Part shown: piece after piece, positions 1,331 to 45,042 of the stretch
Position numbering within the stretch: the first letter of the stretch is position 1
Layout: each line of letters opens with the position of its first letter
Source: a virus
Lineage: Duplodnaviria; Heunggongvirae; Uroviricota; Caudoviricetes
Strand: one strand, 5' to 3'
DNA: 45,042 nucleotides
IMG/VR virus record: IMGVR_UViG_2563366951_000002
Location: 1-45,042 of that record
Notes under the pieces: model-generated
The model's input: the letters and a program-made list of their open reading frames with translations, nothing else
Databases searched by the model: none
What the model was told of the DNA's origin: nothing
Translations under genes and position numbers: made by a program

Positions 1331-1345
1331 GCTTTTTTATACTAA
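1331..1345. other. attL core (common core O of lambda att)
   Basis: GCTTTTTTATACTAA flanked on the left by host attB half (tgaagcct) and on the right by lambda P' arm (gttggcattataaaaaagcattgc...). Confidence 0.9.
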
Positions 1346-10865: not shown

Positions 10866-11027
10866 ATGACAAAACGTCGTAAGAAATACCAGGAAAAAGA
10901 AGAGATTCGACACCCTGATTCACCTGAGGGATTAGTGGTAGCCGCAGCAAATAACAGGGCGTTCGCAGAGCGCCTTGTTGGTGTTTACAGACTAGCCAAA
11001 GCAGGAGTGAAACATGGGCGTCGTTAA
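10866..11027 (+). CDS. Small basic hypothetical protein (53 aa), not in the ORF track
   Basis: ATG at 10866 with AGGAG 6 nt upstream; TAA at 11025-11027; translation MTKRRKKYQEKEEIRHPDSPEGLVVAAANNRAFAERLVGVYRLAKAGVKHGRR. Confidence 0.45.
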   Translation: MTKRRKKYQEKEEIRHPDSPEGLVVAAANNRAFAERLVGVYRLAKAGVKHGRR

Positions 11028-11076
11028 GTTAGCTGATTACAGGCATAACCCTGTACAACATCAGGAGGCATCCAGT

Positions 11077-11904
11077 ATGGGGTATGTCTCTATACACCGC
11101 CAGTTTATGGACAGCAGGCTCTATAAGGACTCTCAGGCAGTACATCTTTGGCTTCACTTAATCCTCAAGGCTAATCACGAATCTACTGTCGTCAATACGG
11201 ATATCGGTCCGATAACTGTTGATCGCGGTCAGATGATAACTGGACGCCCGTCGCTGGTCAGAGAAACATTCATCCCCGACAACAAAGTTCGGAGCTTATT
11301 ACGGACTTTTGAGTCGAAAGGGATGCTTAATATTTGCTCGATGGGGAAGAAATTTAGCCTGTTTACAATCGTTAAATATGACGATTTTCAGGCAAAAAAT
11401 TGTCCAACGGTTGTCCAACGGTTGTCCATCGCAAACACCAGTAATGGCGCGGCTCTCAGCGGAGATTGTCCAACGGTTGTCCAACGGTTGTCCATAAACA
11501 ATAATATAAATAATATCTCTAATACTGACGTATTAGAGAGTACCGCAGCAGACAAAAAGTCTGACAAGAAAAAACCTTCCGTTAGCTGTCAGGATGTTGT
11601 CGATGCTTACCACGAAATCCTTCCTGAAGCGCCAAAAATCCGCGCACTGAATGACAAGCGTAAAAACCAGATCCGAACGTTCTGGCGCAAAGCCGGAGTG
11701 ATAACCCGCCAGCTCGACGGGCATGGGTTCACGATGCAGGACTGGAGAAATTATTTGAGCTACGTAGGCGAAAATTGCCGATGGATGTTCGAAGAGCGCC
11801 CAAACCATCAGCGCGGAACCGTCTGGCACAAAAAGGGATTTGATTTCCTGCTTAACGATAATACCTACCTGAAAGTTCGTGAGGGTGAACACGATGACCG
11901 ATAA
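11077..11904 (+). CDS. Replication initiator, O-like, with origin iterons inside the gene
   Basis: ATG at 11077 with AGGAGG 8 nt upstream (track ORF starts at 11014); iteron repeats and an AT-rich block lie within the coding sequence as in lambda O; stop overlaps the helicase start. Confidence 0.7.
   Translation: MGYVSIHRQFMDSRLYKDSQAVHLWLHLILKANHESTVVNTDIGPITVDRGQMITGRPSLVRETFIPDNKVRSLLRTFESKGMLNICSMGKKFSLFTIVKYDDFQAKNCPTVVQRLSIANTSNGAALSGDCPTVVQRLSINNNINNISNTDVLESTAADKKSDKKKPSVSCQDVVDAYHEILPEAPKIRALNDKRKNQIRTFWRKAGVITRQLDGHGFTMQDWRNYLSYVGENCRWMFEERPNHQRGTVWHKKGFDFLLNDNTYLKVREGEHDDR
11400..11496. repeat. Origin iterons: two clusters of three 11-bp direct repeats
   Basis: TTGTCCAACGG at 11400, 11411, 11422 (third copy degenerate) and again at 11466, 11477, 11488; followed by AT-rich aacaataatataaataatatctctaatact. 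Confidence 0.75.
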
Positions 11905-14359
11905 TTTTTATGCGCCGCCCCATAGCATCGAGGCAGAGCAGGCGGTGATTGGTGGATTGCTTCTGGATGATGACAGCAGTGAGCGCGTCCAGAAAGTTCT
12001 GGCGATGCTGAAGCCTGATTCATTTTACTGCCGACCACACAAAATCCTTTTCGAAGAAATAACCAGAATGCACCGTGAGCAAAAGCCAGTAGATGGCCTG
12101 ACGCTTTTCGATGAACTGGAGCGTAAATCGTTAACGGCGTCTGTTGGCGGTTTTGCTTATATCACTGAGATCGCAAAGAACACGCCAAGCGCCGCAAACA
12201 TCGTTGCCTATGCAATGCAGGTTCGCGAAACCGCAATGGAACGCTACGCCATCAACCGCATGACTGAAGCGACGGAATTGCTCTATTCCCGCAACGGAAT
12301 GACTGCGACGCAGAAGTACGAAGCTATTCAGGCGATTTTCACGCAACTGACAGACCATGCAAAAACCGGATCGCGTCGCGGCCTTCGCTCATTTGGTGAG
12401 GTTATGGAAGACTGGGTTAGCGACCTTGAGAAACGATTTGACCCATCAGGCGAACAACGGGGAATGAGCACAGGGATCCCATCGCTGGACAGGATGCTGT
12501 CACCGAAAGGTCTGGTGAAAGGCTCTCTGTTTGTCATTGGCGCTCGCCCTAAGATGGGGAAAGCGCAACCGCTTAATTCACGCATTTTGCTTGCTGATGG
12601 TTCATGGACAACATTTCGTGACGTATGTGTTGGAGATTCCCTAGCATCAGTGGATGGACAACCATCATTCGTGTCTGGAGTTTTTCCTCAAGGGGAGCGA
12701 GATATTTACCGAGTTACGTTCTCTGACGGAAGAACCGTTGATTGCGCGGATGATCATTTGTGGGAGATTCATAGTAACCGTATTACCGGTGGCGTTGATG
12801 TTGTAGACACCTGCCGCCTACGGGACATGATGGAATGCGTTCGCTATCAAAGCCGCATTCATGTTCCTGGTATTAGCGGTGACTTCGGATTGCCTGTTGA
12901 TTTAGGGATTAGCCCATGGCTGTTAGGTGCGTTACTTGGCGATGGAAATCTTGCAGGTACGCCACGAATCAGCATGACGGAACCATACATCATTGAGCGA
13001 GTAAGATCTGAAGTGGGTGACGATATTGAAGTCAGGCATGTTTCTGGCTGCGATTACTCCCTATCTCACAAGTTTAGCCGCAAATTATCTCTTACGCGGG
13101 TTATGCAACGGCTTGGTATCTACGGCCGGATGTCAGAGATTAAAATTATCCCGGATATTATTTTTTCTGCTGATAAGCAAACTCGTATTGATGTTCTATG
13201 CGGATTACTTGAAACCGATGGTTGGGTTGAAGGAAATAATGCCCTGCGCTTTAGCTCGGCAAGCAAGTTCCTGTCAGATGGTGTAAAGCGGCTGGTGCAT
13301 TCTCTTGGTGGCGTGTGTCGTATGACAACCAAACAGGAGCCGAAATTCAGTTATAAGGGAGAAATGCGCAAAGGTATGGATGCCCATATTTGCGCAATCA
13401 GGTTGCCTGATGAGGTTCTATCACACATAAAATCTCCACGCCTGAAGCAAAAATTCACTGCAAAACGCATCAAAACAAGTGCGCCTGTTATCACGTCGGT
13501 TGAGTATATTGGACGTGAAGAGTGCATTTGCATCATGGTATCCCACGAGAGACATTTGTATGCAACTGACGGATACATTCTAACTCACAACACCACGCTA
13601 TACAGCCAGATGGCAATCAACTGCGCAGTGCATGAGAAAAAGCCCGCTCTGATGTTCAGCCTTGAAATGCCAGGTGACCAGATACTGGAAAAACTGGTGG
13701 GACAGAAGTCAGGTGTTAACCCGAATATTTTTTACCTTCCGGCGACAAATGACGCTGATGACAGCTATCAGGGTGATTACGATGGTGACTTCAACAGGGC
13801 GATCGAAACAGCCAATCGCTTGAGTGAAATCGACCTGCTTTACATCGACGACACGCCGGGATTATCTCTGGCTCAAATCGTCAGCGAAAGCCGTCGAATC
13901 AAGCGAGAAAAAGGATGTGTTGGCATGATTCTGGTCGATTACCTGACACTAATGACTGCTGAGAAGGCCGATCGCAACGACCTTGCTTACGGCATGATCA
14001 CCAAAGGATTGAAGAACCTTGCCAAAGAGCTTGATTGCGTTGTTGTGCTTCTGACACAGCTTAACCGCGCACTGGAAAGCCGAACCAATAAACGCCCATT
14101 ACCAAGTGACTCACGAGATACAGGGCAGATTGAACAGGATTGCGATTATTGGGTTGGGATCCATCGGGAAGGTGCTTTTGATGACAGCGTTCCTCCTGGT
14201 GAAACCGAACTAATCCTTCGTCTCAATCGTCATGGCAATACCGGCACGGTGTATTGCATTCAGGCAAATGGCGCTATTTATGACACAGACCAACAGTCTG
14301 CTGAAATGCGCCGACGTGAACGCGAGGAACCGCAGTCCAAGAAGAAAGGAGGATTCTGA
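11894..14359 (+). CDS. DnaB-family replicative helicase interrupted by an in-frame intein
   Basis: ATG at 11894 (track ORF starts at GTG 11879); N-terminal DnaB-like domain; Walker A GARPKMGK, then 343-aa insert, then TTLYSQMAIN...SLEMP...LVDYL...SDSRDTGQIEQDCD helicase motifs. Confidence 0.8.
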   Translation: MTDNFYAPPHSIEAEQAVIGGLLLDDDSSERVQKVLAMLKPDSFYCRPHKILFEEITRMHREQKPVDGLTLFDELERKSLTASVGGFAYITEIAKNTPSAANIVAYAMQVRETAMERYAINRMTEATELLYSRNGMTATQKYEAIQAIFTQLTDHAKTGSRRGLRSFGEVMEDWVSDLEKRFDPSGEQRGMSTGIPSLDRMLSPKGLVKGSLFVIGARPKMGKAQPLNSRILLADGSWTTFRDVCVGDSLASVDGQPSFVSGVFPQGERDIYRVTFSDGRTVDCADDHLWEIHSNRITGGVDVVDTCRLRDMMECVRYQSRIHVPGISGDFGLPVDLGISPWLLGALLGDGNLAGTPRISMTEPYIIERVRSEVGDDIEVRHVSGCDYSLSHKFSRKLSLTRVMQRLGIYGRMSEIKIIPDIIFSADKQTRIDVLCGLLETDGWVEGNNALRFSSASKFLSDGVKRLVHSLGGVCRMTTKQEPKFSYKGEMRKGMDAHICAIRLPDEVLSHIKSPRLKQKFTAKRIKTSAPVITSVEYIGREECICIMVSHERHLYATDGYILTHNTTLYSQMAINCAVHEKKPALMFSLEMPGDQILEKLVGQKSGVNPNIFYLPATNDADDSYQGDYDGDFNRAIETANRLSEIDLLYIDDTPGLSLAQIVSESRRIKREKGCVGMILVDYLTLMTAEKADRNDLAYGMITKGLKNLAKELDCVVVLLTQLNRALESRTNKRPLPSDSRDTGQIEQDCDYWVGIHREGAFDDSVPPGETELILRLNRHGNTGTVYCIQANGAIYDTDQQSAEMRRREREEPQSKKKGGF
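12563..13591 (+). mobile_element. Intein (343 aa) with LAGLIDADG homing-endonuclease domain, inserted in the helicase P-loop
   Basis: Insert begins AQPLNSRILLADG and ends YILTHN, followed by Thr; two LAGLIDADG motifs (LLGALLGDGNL, LCGLLETDGW); removing it restores GARPKMGK-TTLYSQ. Confidence 0.75.
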
Positions 14360-16196: not shown

Positions 16197-16365
16197 CCCA
16201 TCCCAATCCCTTCAATACCAGAAAGAAAGCGTCGAGCGAGCTTTAACGTGCGCTAATTGCGGTCAAAAGCTGCATGTGCTGGAAGTTCACGTGTGCTCCG
16301 ATTGCTGCGCAGAACTGATGAGCGATCCGAATAGCTCAATGTACGAGGAAGAAGACGATGAGTGA
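16189..16365 (+). CDS. ninF: NinF-like protein (58 aa)
   Basis: Internal ATG at 16189; [44 protein letters not shown]... resembles lambda NinF as recalled. Confidence 0.65.
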   Translation: MLSPSQSLQYQKESVERALTCANCGQKLHVLEVHVCSDCCAELMSDPNSSMYEEEDDE

Positions 16366-16867
16366 TGTTAAAGAAAAAGATATCCCCGGCTTTGAGGGTA
16401 TATATAAAGTAACTGAAAATGGAGACATCATTTCATGCCGTAAATCAAAAAAATTATCTCATGGCATTAAACCAGGAGGATATGCATTTGTCGGTCTGTA
16501 TCCAGGTGGCGGGAAAAGACCATCATATAAAATGGTTCACAGAATTGTTGCAGAAGTATTTATTGATAACCCAGATGGCAAACCGGAAGTTAATCACAAG
16601 GATGGAAATAAACTTAATAATAAAGTTGAAAATCTTGAGTGGGTAACGCGAACAGAAAATGCGAAACATGGATTTGATTCCGGATTGCTTGTTCATGGGT
16701 TTAATCATCACTTCTGCAAACTAACGCCAGAACAAGTGAAATCAATATATAAATCAAAAGGCAAATACAGAGATATAGCCAAAGAATTTGGTGTTTGTGC
16801 GCAGACAGTGTGCAACATAAAAAACAAATCAGCGTACCGACGTTTTTTGGAGGGGATTGATGTTTAG
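16358..16867 (+). CDS. Free-standing HNH-family endonuclease (169 aa)
   Basis: ORF from track; HNH-like core (EVNHKDGNKLNNKVENLEWVTRTENAKHG) with N-terminal GIYKVTENGDI segment; region is visibly AT-rich relative to flanks. Confidence 0.7.
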   Translation: MSDVKEKDIPGFEGIYKVTENGDIISCRKSKKLSHGIKPGGYAFVGLYPGGGKRPSYKMVHRIVAEVFIDNPDGKPEVNHKDGNKLNNKVENLEWVTRTENAKHGFDSGLLVHGFNHHFCKLTPEQVKSIYKSKGKYRDIAKEFGVCAQTVCNIKNKSAYRRFLEGIDV

Positions 16868-42642: not shown

Positions 42643-43686
42643 TTACCCTGTAAATATGCTCATGATTATCTTTGAAGCGCGTTTACTTTCAAGGTGGCTA
42701 GATATCATTTTCACTAATTTTACTTGTGAATACACAACTAATAATGCAAGTGTATAAGTTACAATAAATGTTATCACAAAGTTTAAACTGAGTTTGTGGC
42801 ACATTAATATGAATAAAATGTGCCACAGATAAAGCCATATTGAGTTTTCTGAAGTAAATTTGACAAGTGTCCATGCAACAGTATTTTTTAAGCGAGCCAC
42901 AATGGCATCAGCATATAAATAAACCAGTGTGCTAACGAATACAGCATAGGATAAATAGTAAATCCCCGGGGGGTATTTATCAATTTGTGTTGGGATAAAG
43001 GAATTATCTACAAAGTAAAAATCAATAACTAAGAAAAAGAACAGGGACGCAGAACAAATAATCAACAGTAAAATTTGCTTTTTGTCTAAACTCATTAGTT
43101 TATAGCCGATTAAAAATACAAACATATAAGGTATAGTGTTTGCAATATAGGAGCCGATGAGAACCATTTTGTTCATTTCGTCAAGCTCTTTATAGAAACT
43201 TTTGAATTGACTATTAATAATTACGGTGAGAGCAAAAAAAGATAGTAGATACAACATTCTTGCATTGAGTAATTTCTTTGGTAAGAATATCGCAATTGTC
43301 GAAATTATGAAAAAAAGCCTTATAACCCAAACATATCCCAATCCGCTAGATAACGTAAATGAGGTAATTATATGCCCTTGTGGATAAGTGAAGTTTTTAA
43401 TATTAAATGCTAAGGCAAGACATTCATTTATTACGAAGAAAAAACCAAAGAAAATCCATGTAGGAAGAACTAATCGACGAAAGCGCGAGGCGATATAACC
43501 TAGTTTGTCTTTATGTCTTTCCTCTGTCACATAAAATGACATTCCCATGACCATAAACATTAAAGGTACATCGAAGTTACGCAGTTGAGCTAGCCATAAA
43601 GGAGGCTGGACATGGGCTAGAATGATTAGAGAAAGCCCGAGAAATCTTAAAAAATCTATTTTATCAATACGCATGACTTCGTCCAT
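42643..43686 (-). CDS. Acyltransferase-3 family integral membrane protein (O-antigen acetylase-like, 347 aa)
   Basis: ORF from track; about ten hydrophobic segments; N-terminal FLRFLGLSLIILAHV typical of acyltransferase_3; very AT-rich codon usage unlike neighbours; opposite strand to the tail genes, next to attR. Confidence 0.7.
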   Translation of the reverse strand: MDEVMRIDKIDFLRFLGLSLIILAHVQPPLWLAQLRNFDVPLMFMVMGMSFYVTEERHKDKLGYIASRFRRLVLPTWIFFGFFFVINECLALAFNIKNFTYPQGHIITSFTLSSGLGYVWVIRLFFIISTIAIFLPKKLLNARMLYLLSFFALTVIINSQFKSFYKELDEMNKMVLIGSYIANTIPYMFVFLIGYKLMSLDKKQILLLIICSASLFFFLVIDFYFVDNSFIPTQIDKYPPGIYYLSYAVFVSTLVYLYADAIVARLKNTVAWTLVKFTSENSIWLYLWHILFILMCHKLSLNFVITFIVTYTLALLVVYSQVKLVKMISSHLESKRASKIIMSIFTG

Positions 43687-44460: not shown

Positions 44461-44475
44461 GCTTTTTTATACTAA
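44461..44475. other. attR core
   Basis: GCTTTTTTATACTAA followed by host attB right half (cttgagcgaaacggg). Confidence 0.9.
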
Positions 44476-44565: not shown

Positions 44566-45042
44566 TTAACTAAACATCGCAGTAATCGAGGCGCTTGCCA
44601 GAGAGTGGAAATGAACGTTAAACCCGACCATCGCGCCGCTGGCACCTTCATCGACATCAATACGTTCTATATCCAGCGCGTGAACGGTAAAAATGTAGCG
44701 ATGAGTTTCGCCTTTCGGCGGTGCTGCGCCATCGTACCCGGTTTTACCAAAGTCGGTACGCGTCTGCAAAACGCCGTCTGGCATTGCTACCAGACCAGAG
44801 CCAAACCCTTGCGGTAATACGCGGGTATCAGCGGGTAAGTTAACAACTACCCAGTGCCACCAGCCGGAGCCGGTTGGCGCATCCGGGTCGTAGCAGGTGA
44901 CAACAAAACTTTTCGTTCCCGCAGGAACATCATCCCACGCCAGATGCGGTGAAATATTATCGCCATCGTAACCCATGCCGTTAAAGACATGACGATGCGG
45001 CAATTTATCGCCATCGCGCAGATCGTTACTGATGAGTTTCAT
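44566..45042 (-). CDS. ybhB: YbhB, PEBP/kinase-inhibitor-family protein (158 aa); host gene on the bio side of attB-lambda
   Basis: Complete ORF from track, ATG at 45040-45042; recognised by recall as E. coli ybhB. Confidence 0.85.
   Translation of the reverse strand: MKLISNDLRDGDKLPHRHVFNGMGYDGDNISPHLAWDDVPAGTKSFVVTCYDPDAPTGSGWWHWVVVNLPADTRVLPQGFGSGLVAMPDGVLQTRTDFGKTGYDGAAPPKGETHRYIFTVHALDIERIDVDEGASGAMVGFNVHFHSLASASITAMFS

What the first reader, a model, noticed from the sequence alone, without database searches (positions are those of the whole stretch)
12563..13591. Intein with homing endonuclease inserted in the Walker A P-loop of the prophage DnaB-type helicase; Ala1 and Thr+1 suggest a class 3 intein
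The helicase ORF is 826 aa, about 350 aa longer than DnaB-type helicases. The extra segment splits the P-loop exactly: GARPKMGK | AQPLNSR...YILTHN | TTLYSQMAIN. It ends with His-Asn followed by Thr, carries two LAGLIDADG motifs, and begins with Ala rather than Cys/Ser. A Trp two residues after a conserved His (DDHLWEIH, about residue 65 of the insert) and Cys residues near the C-terminal block (EECICIMVSH) fit the WCT pattern of class 3 inteins, which use an internal Cys. Such inteins are rare and phage-associated, and this one would make helicase function depend on splicing.
Basis: partly seen in the sequence, partly recalled or inferred. Interest (0 to 1): 0.8.

Follow-up and report, generated by a model that had tools for sequence, protein, structure and literature searches.

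The report
Mobile class 3 intein in prophage helicase
The replication helicase gene of this E. coli prophage is interrupted, exactly inside its ATP-binding loop, by a self-splicing protein element (a class 3 intein carrying a homing endonuclease) that has recently spread among phage helicase genes; it is a real new member of a known kind, and genome annotation wrongly calls it a broken gene.

Summary
Nt 12563-13591 (343 codons) is an in-frame insert in a phage DnaB-type helicase gene, between the Walker A Lys and Thr (GARPKMGK|A...HN|TT). Hundreds of 98%-identical phage and E. coli alleles lack exactly these 1029 nt.

The insert meets every sequence criterion of a class 3 intein: Ala1, His65/Trp67 (block B), Cys323 (F:4), Thr341-His342-Asn343 (block G) and Thr+1. 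These residues align with those of the class 3 DnaB inteins of Mycobacterium smegmatis and M. chimaera, whose structures are solved and which sit at the same P-loop site (DnaB-b). A confident model (pLDDT 90) matches PI-SceI overall.

The same intein (99.5% nt) sits at the same codon in a second helicase allele whose exteins are only 64% identical. All 21 complete copies keep an open frame. Intein diversity is 6-8 times lower than flank diversity, and one synonymous base at +3 (ACC vs ACG) is perfectly linked to the intein. This points to recent homing with a tiny co-conversion tract.

The nearest described relative is the untested intein of Stx phages Min27/phi24B (46-48% identity). Verdict: a new member of a known kind, of moderate interest. 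Splicing itself is untested.

The parts
11894..14359 (+). Precursor gene: phage DnaB-family replicative helicase interrupted by the intein (821 aa, 91.8 kDa; the ORF is also open from GTG 11879)
   Evidence: The start is placed by homology to Sf6 gene 44. The whole protein passes NCBIfam TIGR03600 phage_DnaB (556.7 bits against a cut-off of 498.65) in two stretches.
11894..12562 (+). N-extein (223 aa): DnaB N-terminal domain, linker and first half of Walker A, ending ...GARPKMGK
   Evidence: Pfam DnaB PF00772, E 1.7e-30. 98.1% nt identity to Sf6 gene 44 up to the junction.
12563..13591 (+). Intein, 343 aa (38.3 kDa), Ala1...Asn343; GC 46.2% against 51.8% and 49.2% in the exteins
   Evidence: Exactly absent from the empty alleles. 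AF2 model pLDDT 90.2, pTM 0.90. Foldseek top hit PI-SceI, E 3e-16, TM 0.74.
12563..12862 (+). N-terminal splicing (HINT) half, blocks A and B, residues 1 to about 100
   Evidence: phmmer hits to gp41-1 (6riz, 6qaz), Msm DnaBi1 (6bs8) and Mch DnaB1 (6rix, 6riy), E 1.5e-8 to 1e-5. Beta-strands in the model.
12755..12763 (+). Block B His65-Leu66-Trp67 (B:10 to B:12); Trp67 is the W of the WCT triplet
   Evidence: Aligned to H-Q-W of 6bs8/6rix and H-L-W of 6riz. HLW is invariant in the 12-sequence family alignment.
12863..13477 (+). LAGLIDADG homing endonuclease domain, residues about 101-305
   Evidence: Pfam LAGLIDADG_3, 22.6 bits against a cut-off of 22.5. phmmer hits to PI-PkoII and PI-SceI. 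Foldseek matches to PI-SceI, TliVMA, PI-PfuI and I-DmoI.
12920..12952 (+). LAGLIDADG motif 1, LLGALLGDGNL (Asp127)
   Evidence: Aligns to PI-SceI LLGLWIGDGLS. Position.
13196..13228 (+). LAGLIDADG motif 2, LCGLLETDGWV (Asp219)
   Evidence: Aligns to PI-SceI LAGLIDSDGYV and PI-PkoII LEGYFIGDGDV. G214, L215, D219 and G220 are invariant in the 21-sequence alignment.
13478..13591 (+). C-terminal splicing half, blocks F and G, residues 306-343
   Evidence: Aligned to the C-terminal parts of 6riz, 6bs8 and 6rix. Long beta-hairpin 309-326 in the model.
13529..13531 (+). Cys323, block F position 4: predicted initiating nucleophile of the class 3 pathway
   Evidence: Aligns to Cys118 of Msm DnaBi1 and to the engineered D107C of gp41-1_WCT. 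Cys is conserved in family relatives. Its role is defined in PMC2807308 and PMC6195587.
13583..13591 (+). Block G Thr341-His342-Asn343 (G:5 to G:7); Thr341 is the T of WCT, Asn343 the cyclising residue
   Evidence: THN aligns to THN of 6bs8, 6rix and 6riz. Conserved in the family.
13592..13594 (+). Thr+1 codon ACC: the Walker A Thr, predicted second nucleophile. Its third base is the only extein site that distinguishes intein-bearing alleles from empty type-1 alleles
   Evidence: ACC in 16 of 16 unique intein-bearing haplotypes; ACG in 77 of 77 unique empty type-1 haplotypes.
13592..14359 (+). C-extein (255 aa plus stop): rest of the RecA-like ATPase domain
   Evidence: Pfam DnaB_C 572-792 matches profile positions 33-243. 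98.3% nt identity to Sf6 gene 44.
12548..13609 (+). Inferred homing site, split by the intein: AAGATGGGGAAA | ACSACGCTRTAYAGCCAG. This is the only stretch shared by the two 64%-identical host alleles around the junction
   Evidence: Junction comparison of type-1 and type-2 alleles, occupied and empty. Its role as the recognition site is inference.

Best explanation
The insert is a full-length, mobile class 3 intein at the DnaB-b (P-loop) site of the replicative helicase of a complete lambdoid prophage integrated at att-lambda.

Predicted splicing. The gene is translated as a 91.8-kDa precursor whose Walker A loop is split, so the precursor is presumably ATPase-dead. Splicing should follow the class 3 route. 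Cys323 (block F:4), helped by His65, Trp67 and Thr341, attacks the Lys(-1)-Ala1 peptide bond and forms a thioester branch. [quoted passage not shown] Asn343 cyclises and releases the 38.3-kDa intein. An O-to-N shift then restores GARPKMGK-TTLY in a 53.5-kDa helicase identical in architecture to Sf6 gp44 / HK022-type P.

Predicted homing. The freed intein's LAGLIDADG domain (Asp127, Asp219) is predicted to cut intein-free helicase alleles at the P-loop coding sequence when two phages or prophages meet in one cell. Repair then copies the intein in.

What is shown: the exact insertion, the diagnostic residues, the fold, the intact frames, and a population pattern of recent horizontal spread.

What is inferred: splicing itself, the use of Cys323, endonuclease activity, and its target.
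For: Exact presence/absence. Empty alleles span 1452 nt against 2481 nt in 87 phages and about 375 E. coli genomes, and the junction is unambiguous.

Class 3 signature. Ala1, Trp67, Cys323, Thr341, His342, Asn343 and Thr+1 align to Msm DnaBi1 and Mch DnaB1, whose structures are solved and which the literature treats as class 3. The same residues are conserved in relatives inside DnaB, PhoH and UvrD-like ATPases.

Fold. pLDDT 90.2; PI-SceI TM 0.74. The best mini-intein matches are the class 3 DnaB inteins, at rmsd 2.3 A and 26-29% identity.

Same insertion site as DnaB-b.

Function retained. 21 of 21 complete copies have an open frame. In the intein there are 7 synonymous and 5 non-synonymous variable sites, dN/dS about 0.22, binomial P about 0.01. 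The prophage looks complete and has exact att cores.

Mobility. A 99.5%-identical intein sits in a helicase allele with 64% nt-identical exteins, and that allele also has exact empty forms. Intein diversity is 0.0026 against 0.017 and 0.022 in the flanks. Diversity among intein-bearing flanks is about the same as among empty flanks and between the two groups. The single fixed difference lies at +3, ACC against ACG.
Against: No experiment exists: splicing, the branched intermediate and endonuclease cleavage are all inferred.

Grafting WCT plus C1A onto gp41-1 did not give productive splicing (PMC7664689), so the signature alone does not prove activity.

Block B:7 is Ala, not Asp as in Msm DnaBi1 or Ser as in MP-Be. 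This position is variable in the family and dispensable in MP-Be.

Pfam LAGLIDADG_3 only just reaches its cut-off and Hom_end_hint falls below it. No NCBIfam intein model hits.

The intein is rare (18 of 5426 complete E. coli genomes). That fits a recent invasion but also weak drive.

Flank shuffling by ordinary phage recombination could contribute to the population pattern.
Confidence: 0.8

Rival explanations
1. The intein still splices, so the helicase works, but its homing endonuclease is now inactive. On this view the present distribution reflects past homing plus ordinary recombination among mosaic lambdoid prophages.
For: Pfam support for the endonuclease domain is marginal. Occupancy is low: 16 of 391 genomes with the type-1 allele and 18 of 5426 overall. 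Five of the 12 variable sites are non-synonymous. Loss of the endonuclease is a standard stage of the intein life cycle; Msm DnaBi1 is a mini-intein.
Against: Both LAGLIDADG motifs keep their acidic residues. The endonuclease domain is modelled with high confidence and superposes on PI-SceI. Intein diversity is 6-8 times lower than flank diversity, and the intein sits on the full spectrum of haplotypes with a co-conversion mark of only one base. This is hard to obtain without very recent double-strand-break-driven transfer. Transfer between alleles sharing only 12 nt and 8 nt of flanking identity argues against plain homologous recombination.
Confidence: 0.12
2. The intein splices, but not by the class 3 route. 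For example, Thr+1 attacks the N-terminal junction directly (class 2, KlbA-like), and Cys323 is only structural.
For: Ala1 is shared with class 2 inteins. The WCT motif alone did not confer class 3 splicing on gp41-1. Block B:7 differs from that of the characterised class 3 inteins.
Against: Class 2 is defined by lacking the WCT triplet, and this intein has all three residues. Its closest structural and sequence relatives among mini-inteins are the class 3 DnaB inteins at the same site. In MP-Be DnaB and Msm DnaBi1 the F:4 Cys is essential.
Confidence: 0.05
3. The insertion has killed the gene. The helicase is a pseudogene in a decaying prophage, as RefSeq/PGAP annotates it (two 'incomplete' fragments), or the segment is a permanent, non-excised domain.
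For: PGAP marks both halves as pseudogene pieces in every E. coli genome examined. No curated NCBIfam intein model recognises the insert. One truncated chimeric derivative exists (P0002).
Against: 21 of 21 complete copies keep a 2.4-kb frame open across both junctions. dN/dS is about 0.22. All catalytic splice residues are intact. The insert splits the Walker A GK|T, which a permanent domain could not do without destroying ATPase activity. The prophage has a full gene set and intact att sites. The element spread into a second allele.
Confidence: 0.03

Closest known systems
Mycobacterium smegmatis DnaBi1 and M. leprae / M. chimaera DnaB-1 inteins (class 3, DnaB insertion site b; PDB 6bs8, 6rix, 6riy)
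   Same: Same host protein family and the same insertion point, between the Walker A Lys and the Ser/Thr that becomes +1. Ala1, His(B:10), Trp(B:12), Cys(F:4) and Thr-His-Asn are all shared. They are the best structural match among mini-inteins (rmsd 2.3 A, 26-29% identity).
   Different: Those are mini-inteins without an endonuclease, in chromosomal dnaB of actinobacteria, with Ser+1 and Asp at B:7. This one is full-length with an intact LAGLIDADG domain, sits in a phage helicase of E. coli, and has Thr+1 and Ala at B:7. The Cys48 partner of the Msm redox switch has no equivalent here (Ile47).
Intein of the primase-helicase 'P' of Stx phages Min27, phi24B and the Stx2a phages. I recall it listed in InBase as EP-Min27 Primase; this could not be verified here.
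   Same: The closest relative in the phage collection: 46-48% identity over the full length and the same size (342 against 343 aa). It has Ala1, DHLW, C-x-C-I-M-V, THN|T and both LAGLIDADG motifs. It is also inserted at GK|T of a Walker A loop in an E. coli lambdoid phage replication protein. It was noted but not tested in PMC3430580.
   Different: The host protein is different and non-orthologous: a toprim primase fused to a gp4-type helicase. Only about half the residues are identical. At DNA level the two are unrelated: no phage record matched the insert by megablast.
Mycobacteriophage Bethlehem DnaB intein (MP-Be DnaB), the prototype class 3 intein
   Same: A phage DnaB-family host, a full-length intein of 341 aa with an endonuclease, the WCT triplet, Thr+1, and no N-terminal nucleophile. 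Mycobacteriophage records account for 284 of the 595 tblastn hits.
   Different: It starts with Pro1 after Gln-1. It shares under 60% identity. Its host is an actinobacteriophage.
PI-SceI (Sce VMA1 intein) and archaeal VMA/PI-PfuI inteins
   Same: The same two-part architecture, with a HINT splicing domain enclosing a LAGLIDADG endonuclease. It is the best whole-model structural match (TM 0.74, E 3e-16), and both LAGLIDADG motifs align.
   Different: It is a class 1 intein (Cys1, Cys+1) with 14-16% identity, has an extra DNA-recognition region, and lies in a different host protein.
gp41-1 split intein (cyanophage-like gp41 helicase)
   Same: The best PDB sequence hit (E 1.5e-8). Blocks B, F and G are very similar (EHL[F/W], LI[D/C]IEV, ILTHN), and the host is a phage DnaB-like helicase.
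   Different: It is naturally split, class 1 (Cys1, Asp at F:4, Phe at B:12) and lacks an endonuclease. The WCT graft onto it (6riz) does not splice productively.

Membership tests
Intein (protein-splicing element) | In-frame insertion that is precisely absent from otherwise near-identical host-gene alleles, interrupting a conserved host motif | tested here: met
   1029 nt are absent from 87 phage and about 375 E. coli alleles at 98% identity. The junction cannot slide. Walker A is split at GK|T. A second allele type also has exact empty forms.
Intein (protein-splicing element) | HINT fold with blocks A, B, F and G, a C-terminal His-Asn, and a nucleophilic +1 residue | tested here: met
   phmmer hits to five solved inteins. 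AF2 model pLDDT 90.2. Foldseek hits to inteins and Hedgehog HINT domains. His342-Asn343 followed by Thr+1. Pfam Hom_end_hint alone is below its cut-off (19.2 against 32.1 bits).
Intein (protein-splicing element) | Excision with ligation of the exteins (protein splicing) is demonstrated | not testable with these tools
   Only indirect evidence is available: 21 of 21 open frames, dN/dS about 0.22, and a complete prophage.
Class 3 intein (Tori et al. 2010, PMC2807308) | No Ser, Thr or Cys at intein position 1 | tested here: met
   Ala1 (GCG). The boundary is fixed by the empty alleles, with zero slide.
Class 3 intein (Tori et al. 2010, PMC2807308) | Trp at block B position 12, two residues after the B:10 His | tested here: met
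   His65-Leu66-Trp67 aligns with H-Q-W of 6bs8 and 6rix. Invariant in the family alignment.
Class 3 intein (Tori et al. 2010, PMC2807308) | Cys at block F position 4 | tested here: met
   Cys323 aligns with Cys118 of Msm DnaBi1 and with D107C of gp41-1_WCT. Numbering.
Class 3 intein (Tori et al. 2010, PMC2807308) | Thr at block G position 5, preceding His-Asn | tested here: met
   Thr341 in LTHN aligns to PTHN and LTHN of 6bs8 and 6riz.
Class 3 intein (Tori et al. 2010, PMC2807308) | Ser or Thr at +1 (usual in the class, not defining) | tested here: met
   Thr+1, which is the Walker A Thr.
Class 3 intein (Tori et al. 2010, PMC2807308) | Mechanism: a block F thioester branched intermediate, with an absolute requirement for the F:4 Cys | not testable with these tools
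   Needs C323A/S mutants and detection of the intermediate. The WCT motif alone was insufficient in engineered gp41-1.
DnaB-b (P-loop) insertion-site inteins (Novikova 2016; Kelley 2018) | Host is a DnaB-family helicase, and the intein lies in the Walker A loop so that the P-loop Ser/Thr is +1 | tested here: met
   Pfam DnaB and DnaB_C, and TIGR03600 above its cut-off. GARPKMGK|intein|TT. The site is described in PMC6195587 and PMC4760082.
LAGLIDADG homing endonuclease, intein-associated two-motif type | Two LAGLIDADG helices, each ending in a catalytic Asp/Glu, in an alpha-beta-beta-alpha-beta-beta-alpha fold | tested here: met
   LLGALLGD127G and LLETD219G align to the two PI-SceI motifs. 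Pfam LAGLIDADG_3 scores 22.6 against 22.5 bits. Foldseek hits to PI-SceI, PI-PfuI, I-DmoI and I-Tsp061I.
LAGLIDADG homing endonuclease, intein-associated two-motif type | Cleaves the intein-free allele and drives gene conversion (homing) | tested here: inconclusive
The population signature is strong but indirect: a 99.5%-identical intein in 64%-identical alleles, intein diversity 0.0026 against about 0.02 in the flanks, and a single linked flank base at +3.
Class 2 (KlbA-type) intein | Lacks an N-terminal nucleophile and also lacks the WCT triplet | tested here: not met
   All three WCT residues are present.
Pseudogene / disrupted helicase (the RefSeq PGAP reading) | Loss of constraint, shown by frameshifts, stops or decay of the insert and flanks across copies | tested here: not met
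   12 of 12 E. coli copies and 9 of 9 complete IMG/VR copies have an uninterrupted frame. There is an excess of synonymous change.

The most novel reading that the evidence does not exclude
The intein may be more than a selfish passenger. It could act as a conditional, redox- or zinc-sensitive switch on prophage replication. Cys323 lies next to Cys321 (F:2, shared with the Min27 intein). The near-invariant Cys61 (B:6) sits in the adjacent block B next to His65. A reversible disulfide or metal site could hold the helicase precursor unspliced under oxidative stress and release it on return to reducing conditions. Kelley et al. 2018 showed this for M. smegmatis DnaBi1. It would couple lytic replication of a lambdoid phage to host physiology after induction.
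Probability: 0.1. Interest if true: 0.7.

Novelty: new member of a known kind. Interest (0 to 1): 0.4.

Why it matters
Class 3 inteins at the DnaB P-loop are well described, and a related intein is already recorded in Stx phages, so no new principle is at stake. The value is practical.

1. [quoted passage not shown]
2. This is a full-length class 3 intein with an apparently live endonuclease, in the best genetic system available (lambdoid phages of E. coli). Polymorphic empty and occupied alleles occur in near-identical backgrounds, with a one-base co-conversion mark. This makes a ready natural system for measuring intein homing, co-conversion and splicing in vivo.
3. It presumably splices in E. 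coli at 37 C, which is useful for class 3-based protein engineering.
4. RefSeq/PGAP systematically annotates these helicases as two pseudogene fragments. Tools that count intact genes may therefore score such prophages as replication-defective.

Tried and rejected
Boundary shift. I tested whether the intein could start or end elsewhere, for example at a Cys or Ser. The DNA junction against Sf6 gene 44 allows zero slide in either direction, so this was rejected.

Long co-conversion tracts or a single intein-bearing clade. I compared 16 unique occupied and 77 unique empty type-1 haplotypes in bins around the junction and found no flank differentiation except at base +3. The idea of one vertically inherited insertion was therefore dropped.

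The same DNA in sequenced phages. Megablast of the gene against 50,697 phage records gave no record covering the insert. Only tblastn found relatives, all below 60% identity.

The word-indexed protein search returned only 28 hits and not the full-length protein. This is probably because gene callers and annotators split the gene. It was useful only for building the family alignment.

NCBIfam and Pfam intein-specific models gave nothing above cut-off. This is a limit of those profiles, not evidence against an intein.

Literature gaps. Tori & Perler 2011 (PMC3133030) is not held, and the supplementary tables of Tori 2010 are not held. I could not verify from a source whether the Min27 intein is formally listed as class 3 or whether this helicase intein is in InBase. 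A text search for intein + E. coli + prophage + helicase + class 3 (2017 onwards) found nothing.

Distances between Cys61, Cys321 and Cys323 in the model could not be measured, because model coordinates are not exposed to scripts.

Two script runs failed only because a locus file had not yet synchronised.
Full report
**1. The observation**

The window holds one long ORF on the + strand, 11879-14359, 826 codons from its first GTG. The likely real start is ATG 11894, which matches the annotated start of Sf6 gene 44 and gives 821 aa.

Residues 229-571 of the 826-aa ORF correspond to nt 12563-13591, exactly the reported span. They read AQPLNSR...YILTHN and lie between GARPKMGK and TTLYSQMAIN.

Pfam finds the DnaB N-terminal domain and a DnaB_C domain broken into two stretches. 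It also gives a borderline LAGLIDADG_3 hit and a sub-threshold Hom_end_hint hit inside the insert. NCBIfam TIGR03600 (phage replicative helicase, DnaB family) is passed by the whole protein, again in two stretches that stop and resume at the insert.

**2. It is an insertion, with exact empty alleles**

Megablast of the gene against sequenced phages finds 87 records at about 98% identity. These include Sf6 gene 44, Stx2 phage 86, VT2-Sakai P, HK542 and mEp506. Each spans 1452 nt, which is 2481 minus 1029.

Among 5426 complete E. coli genomes, 391 carry the gene and only 16 carry it with the insert.

Base-by-base, the window reads ...ATGGGGAAA|GCGCAA...CACAAC|ACCACGCTA... and Sf6 reads ...ATGGGGAAA|ACGACGCTA.... 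The junction cannot be slid in either direction. The excised element is therefore Ala1...Asn343, and the first C-extein residue is the Walker A Thr.

From my own knowledge of E. coli DnaB (AARPSMGKTTF), this is the Lys236|Thr237 position.

**3. What the insert is**

*Sequence matches to solved structures.* phmmer against PDB sequences gives, in order, the gp41-1 intein (6riz, 6qaz), the class 3 DnaB intein of M. smegmatis (6bs8) and M. chimaera DnaB-1 (6rix, 6riy). PI-SceI and PI-PkoII then match the central part.

*Diagnostic residues.* In those alignments:
- His65-Leu66-Trp67 pairs with H-Q-W of the mycobacterial inteins.
- Cys323 (the second Cys of ECICIM) pairs with Cys118 of Msm DnaBi1 and with the engineered D107C of gp41-1_WCT.
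- Thr341-His342-Asn343 pairs with T-H-N.

*Endonuclease motifs.* LLGALLGD127G and LLETD219G align to the two LAGLIDADG motifs of PI-SceI.

*Fold.* An AlphaFold2 model built on a 21-sequence alignment is confident (pLDDT 90.2, pTM 0.90). Foldseek places it on PI-SceI as a whole (E 3e-16, TM 0.74). Among mini-inteins the best match is to the class 3 DnaB inteins (rmsd 2.3 A, 26-29% identity).

*Class 3 definition.* Tori et al. 2010 define the class by two features: no Ser/Thr/Cys at position 1, and the Trp(B:12)/Cys(F:4)/Thr(G:5) triplet. Ser or Thr at +1 is usual, and most members lie in ATPase P-loops of helicase-like proteins (PMC2807308). All of these criteria are met here.

*Insertion site.* It is the one called DnaB-b, where the P-loop Ser/Thr doubles as the +1 nucleophile (PMC6195587; PMC4760082).

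**4. Relatives**

Relatives found in the large protein collection sit in three kinds of host protein:
- DnaB helicases (GK|AQPL...THN|T)
- PhoH-like ATPases
- UvrD-like helicases

All of them conserve DHLW, the block F Cys and THN|T.

The closest relative in sequenced phages is the intein in the primase-helicase 'P' of Min27, phi24B and many Stx2a phages. It is 46-48% identical over the full length and is also inserted at a Walker A GK|T (GHGK|ACPLN...ATHN|TEVV). That intein was noticed in phi24B but never tested (PMC3430580).

One metagenomic protein (P0001) has an orthologous helicase (N-extein 80% identical) carrying a different intein (51% identical) at the same site.

No paper in the searchable library describes the present intein.

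**5. Is it alive?**

*Distribution.* The intein DNA occurs in 18 complete E. coli genomes at 99.5% identity or better and in 10 IMG/VR viral contigs.

*A second host allele.* In two of those genomes (ET791, ET846) and two viral contigs the intein sits at the identical codon junction of a different helicase allele. That allele's exteins are only 64% (nt) and 60-65% (aa) identical to the window's. Seven genomes carry exact empty forms of that second allele, spanning 1398 nt (2427 minus 1029).

*Open frames.* All 12 E. coli copies fetched and all 9 complete viral-contig copies have an uninterrupted frame.

*Selection within the intein.* 12 sites vary, 7 synonymous and 5 non-synonymous. This gives dN/dS of about 0.22 and a binomial P of about 0.01 against neutrality.

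*Diversity.* Among ten type-1 occupied genes, nucleotide diversity is 0.0026 in the intein, 0.0167 in the N-extein and 0.0218 in the C-extein.

*Occupied against empty haplotypes.* I compared 16 unique occupied with 77 unique empty type-1 extein haplotypes. Diversity within each group and divergence between them are the same in every flank bin. Exactly one site separates the groups: the third base of the Thr+1 codon, C in all occupied alleles and G in all empty ones. Type-2-like alleles carry ACC natively.

*Reading.* The simplest explanation is repeated, recent, break-induced transfer (homing) from an ACC-type donor, with a 3' co-conversion tract of 3-8 nt. The two allele types share only AAGATGGG(G/T)AAA|AC(C/G)ACGCT around the junction. 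That is too little for ordinary homologous exchange, and it is a plausible core of the endonuclease target. The target assignment is an inference.

**6. Context**

The window contains a whole prophage of 43.1 kb. It is bounded by exact copies of the lambda att core at 1331-1345 and 44461-44475, between ybhC and a ybhB-like gene.

Its gene set is as follows:
- integrase, RecT and a CI-type repressor
- an O-like initiator with iterons, then the helicase
- NinB, a DNA methyltransferase and Q
- lysis genes, terminase, portal, protease and major capsid protein
- tail sheath, tape measure, baseplate and tail fibres

Nothing suggests a decayed element. This supports the view that the helicase must be made functional by splicing.

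**7. Mechanism proposed**

Shown: the anatomy, the diagnostic residues, the fold, conservation of the frame, and horizontal spread.

Inferred from the characterised class 3 inteins MP-Be DnaB and Msm DnaBi1:
- Cys323 attacks the Lys-1/Ala1 bond.
- The N-extein moves to Thr+1.
- Asn343 cyclises.
- The Walker A loop is rebuilt, giving a 53.5-kDa helicase and a 38.3-kDa free intein-endonuclease (masses).

Caveat: the WCT signature is necessary but not sufficient. Grafting it onto gp41-1 gave mostly cleavage rather than splicing (PMC7664689).

**8. Annotation**

In every RefSeq genome examined, PGAP labels the two extein halves as 'incomplete' pseudogenes and leaves the 1029 nt unannotated. No NCBIfam intein model reaches its threshold on this sequence.

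**9. Verdict**

The finding is real and its interpretation is essentially right. It is a new member (at most 51% identical to any other intein found here) of a known kind: class 3, DnaB-b site, LAGLIDADG-bearing, phage-borne.

Interest is moderate. There is no new principle. It is, however, a clean and genetically tractable example of an apparently active class 3 intein homing among E. coli lambdoid phages, and it exposes a systematic annotation error.

Noticed in passing
window 1331-1345 and 44461-44475: Exact copies of the lambda attachment core GCTTTTTTATACTAA flank the element, between ybhC (1-1284, -) and a PBP-family ybhB-like ORF (44566-45042, -). The whole 43.1-kb prophage at att-lambda therefore lies in the window. 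It combines lambdoid early genes with a contractile-tail (sheath and baseplate) late region.
   Followed up: partly
window 16358-16867 (+): A free-standing HNH_3 + NUMOD4 endonuclease ORF (PHROG 59, E 8e-51) lies in the nin region, in the lowest-GC kilobase of the early region (0.41). It is a second homing-endonuclease-type gene in the same prophage.
   Followed up: partly
window 42643-43686 (-): An Acyl_transf_3 family ORF (E 8e-20) with no PHROG match lies in a 38-40% GC stretch next to attR. It looks like an O-antigen-acetylase-type lysogenic-conversion moron.
   Followed up: partly
window 11388-11506 (inside the O-like gene 11014-11904): Two clusters of three 11-bp iterons (TTGTCCAACGG), 66 bp apart, form the probable replication origin inside the initiator gene. 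Sf6 has its origin annotated at the equivalent place.
   Followed up: partly
L001 3016-5481; L004/L005 1838-4264; L011-L018 132-2597: RefSeq/PGAP annotates every intein-bearing helicase as two 'incomplete' pseudogene fragments and leaves the intein unannotated, although the frame is open throughout.
   Followed up: yes
protein P0001 (metagenome-derived, 521 aa, cut by contig end): An orthologous helicase (N-extein 80% identical) carries a different intein (51% identical) at the same GK| site. This suggests more than one intein lineage occupies this site in enterobacterial phage helicases.
   Followed up: partly
protein P0002 (565 aa, NCBI/Logan, contig 235,726 bp): A chimeric ORF joins part of the helicase N-extein and the first ~117 residues of this intein (99% identical) to a PF11134 phage stabilisation-type protein. 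It is apparently a deletion derivative of an intein-bearing prophage.
   Followed up: no
E. coli ET846, NZ_CP100895.1 (hit H98): The intein DNA matches two places in this genome. Only the first was examined.
   Followed up: no
alignment A1, proteins P0009 and P0012 (PhoH-like): Relatives in PhoH-like ATPases have the full WCT signature but start with Ser (YMRGR|SQPLDA...THN|TFND). They are members of the small group of WCT inteins that keep an N-terminal nucleophile, mentioned by Tori et al. 2010.
   Followed up: no
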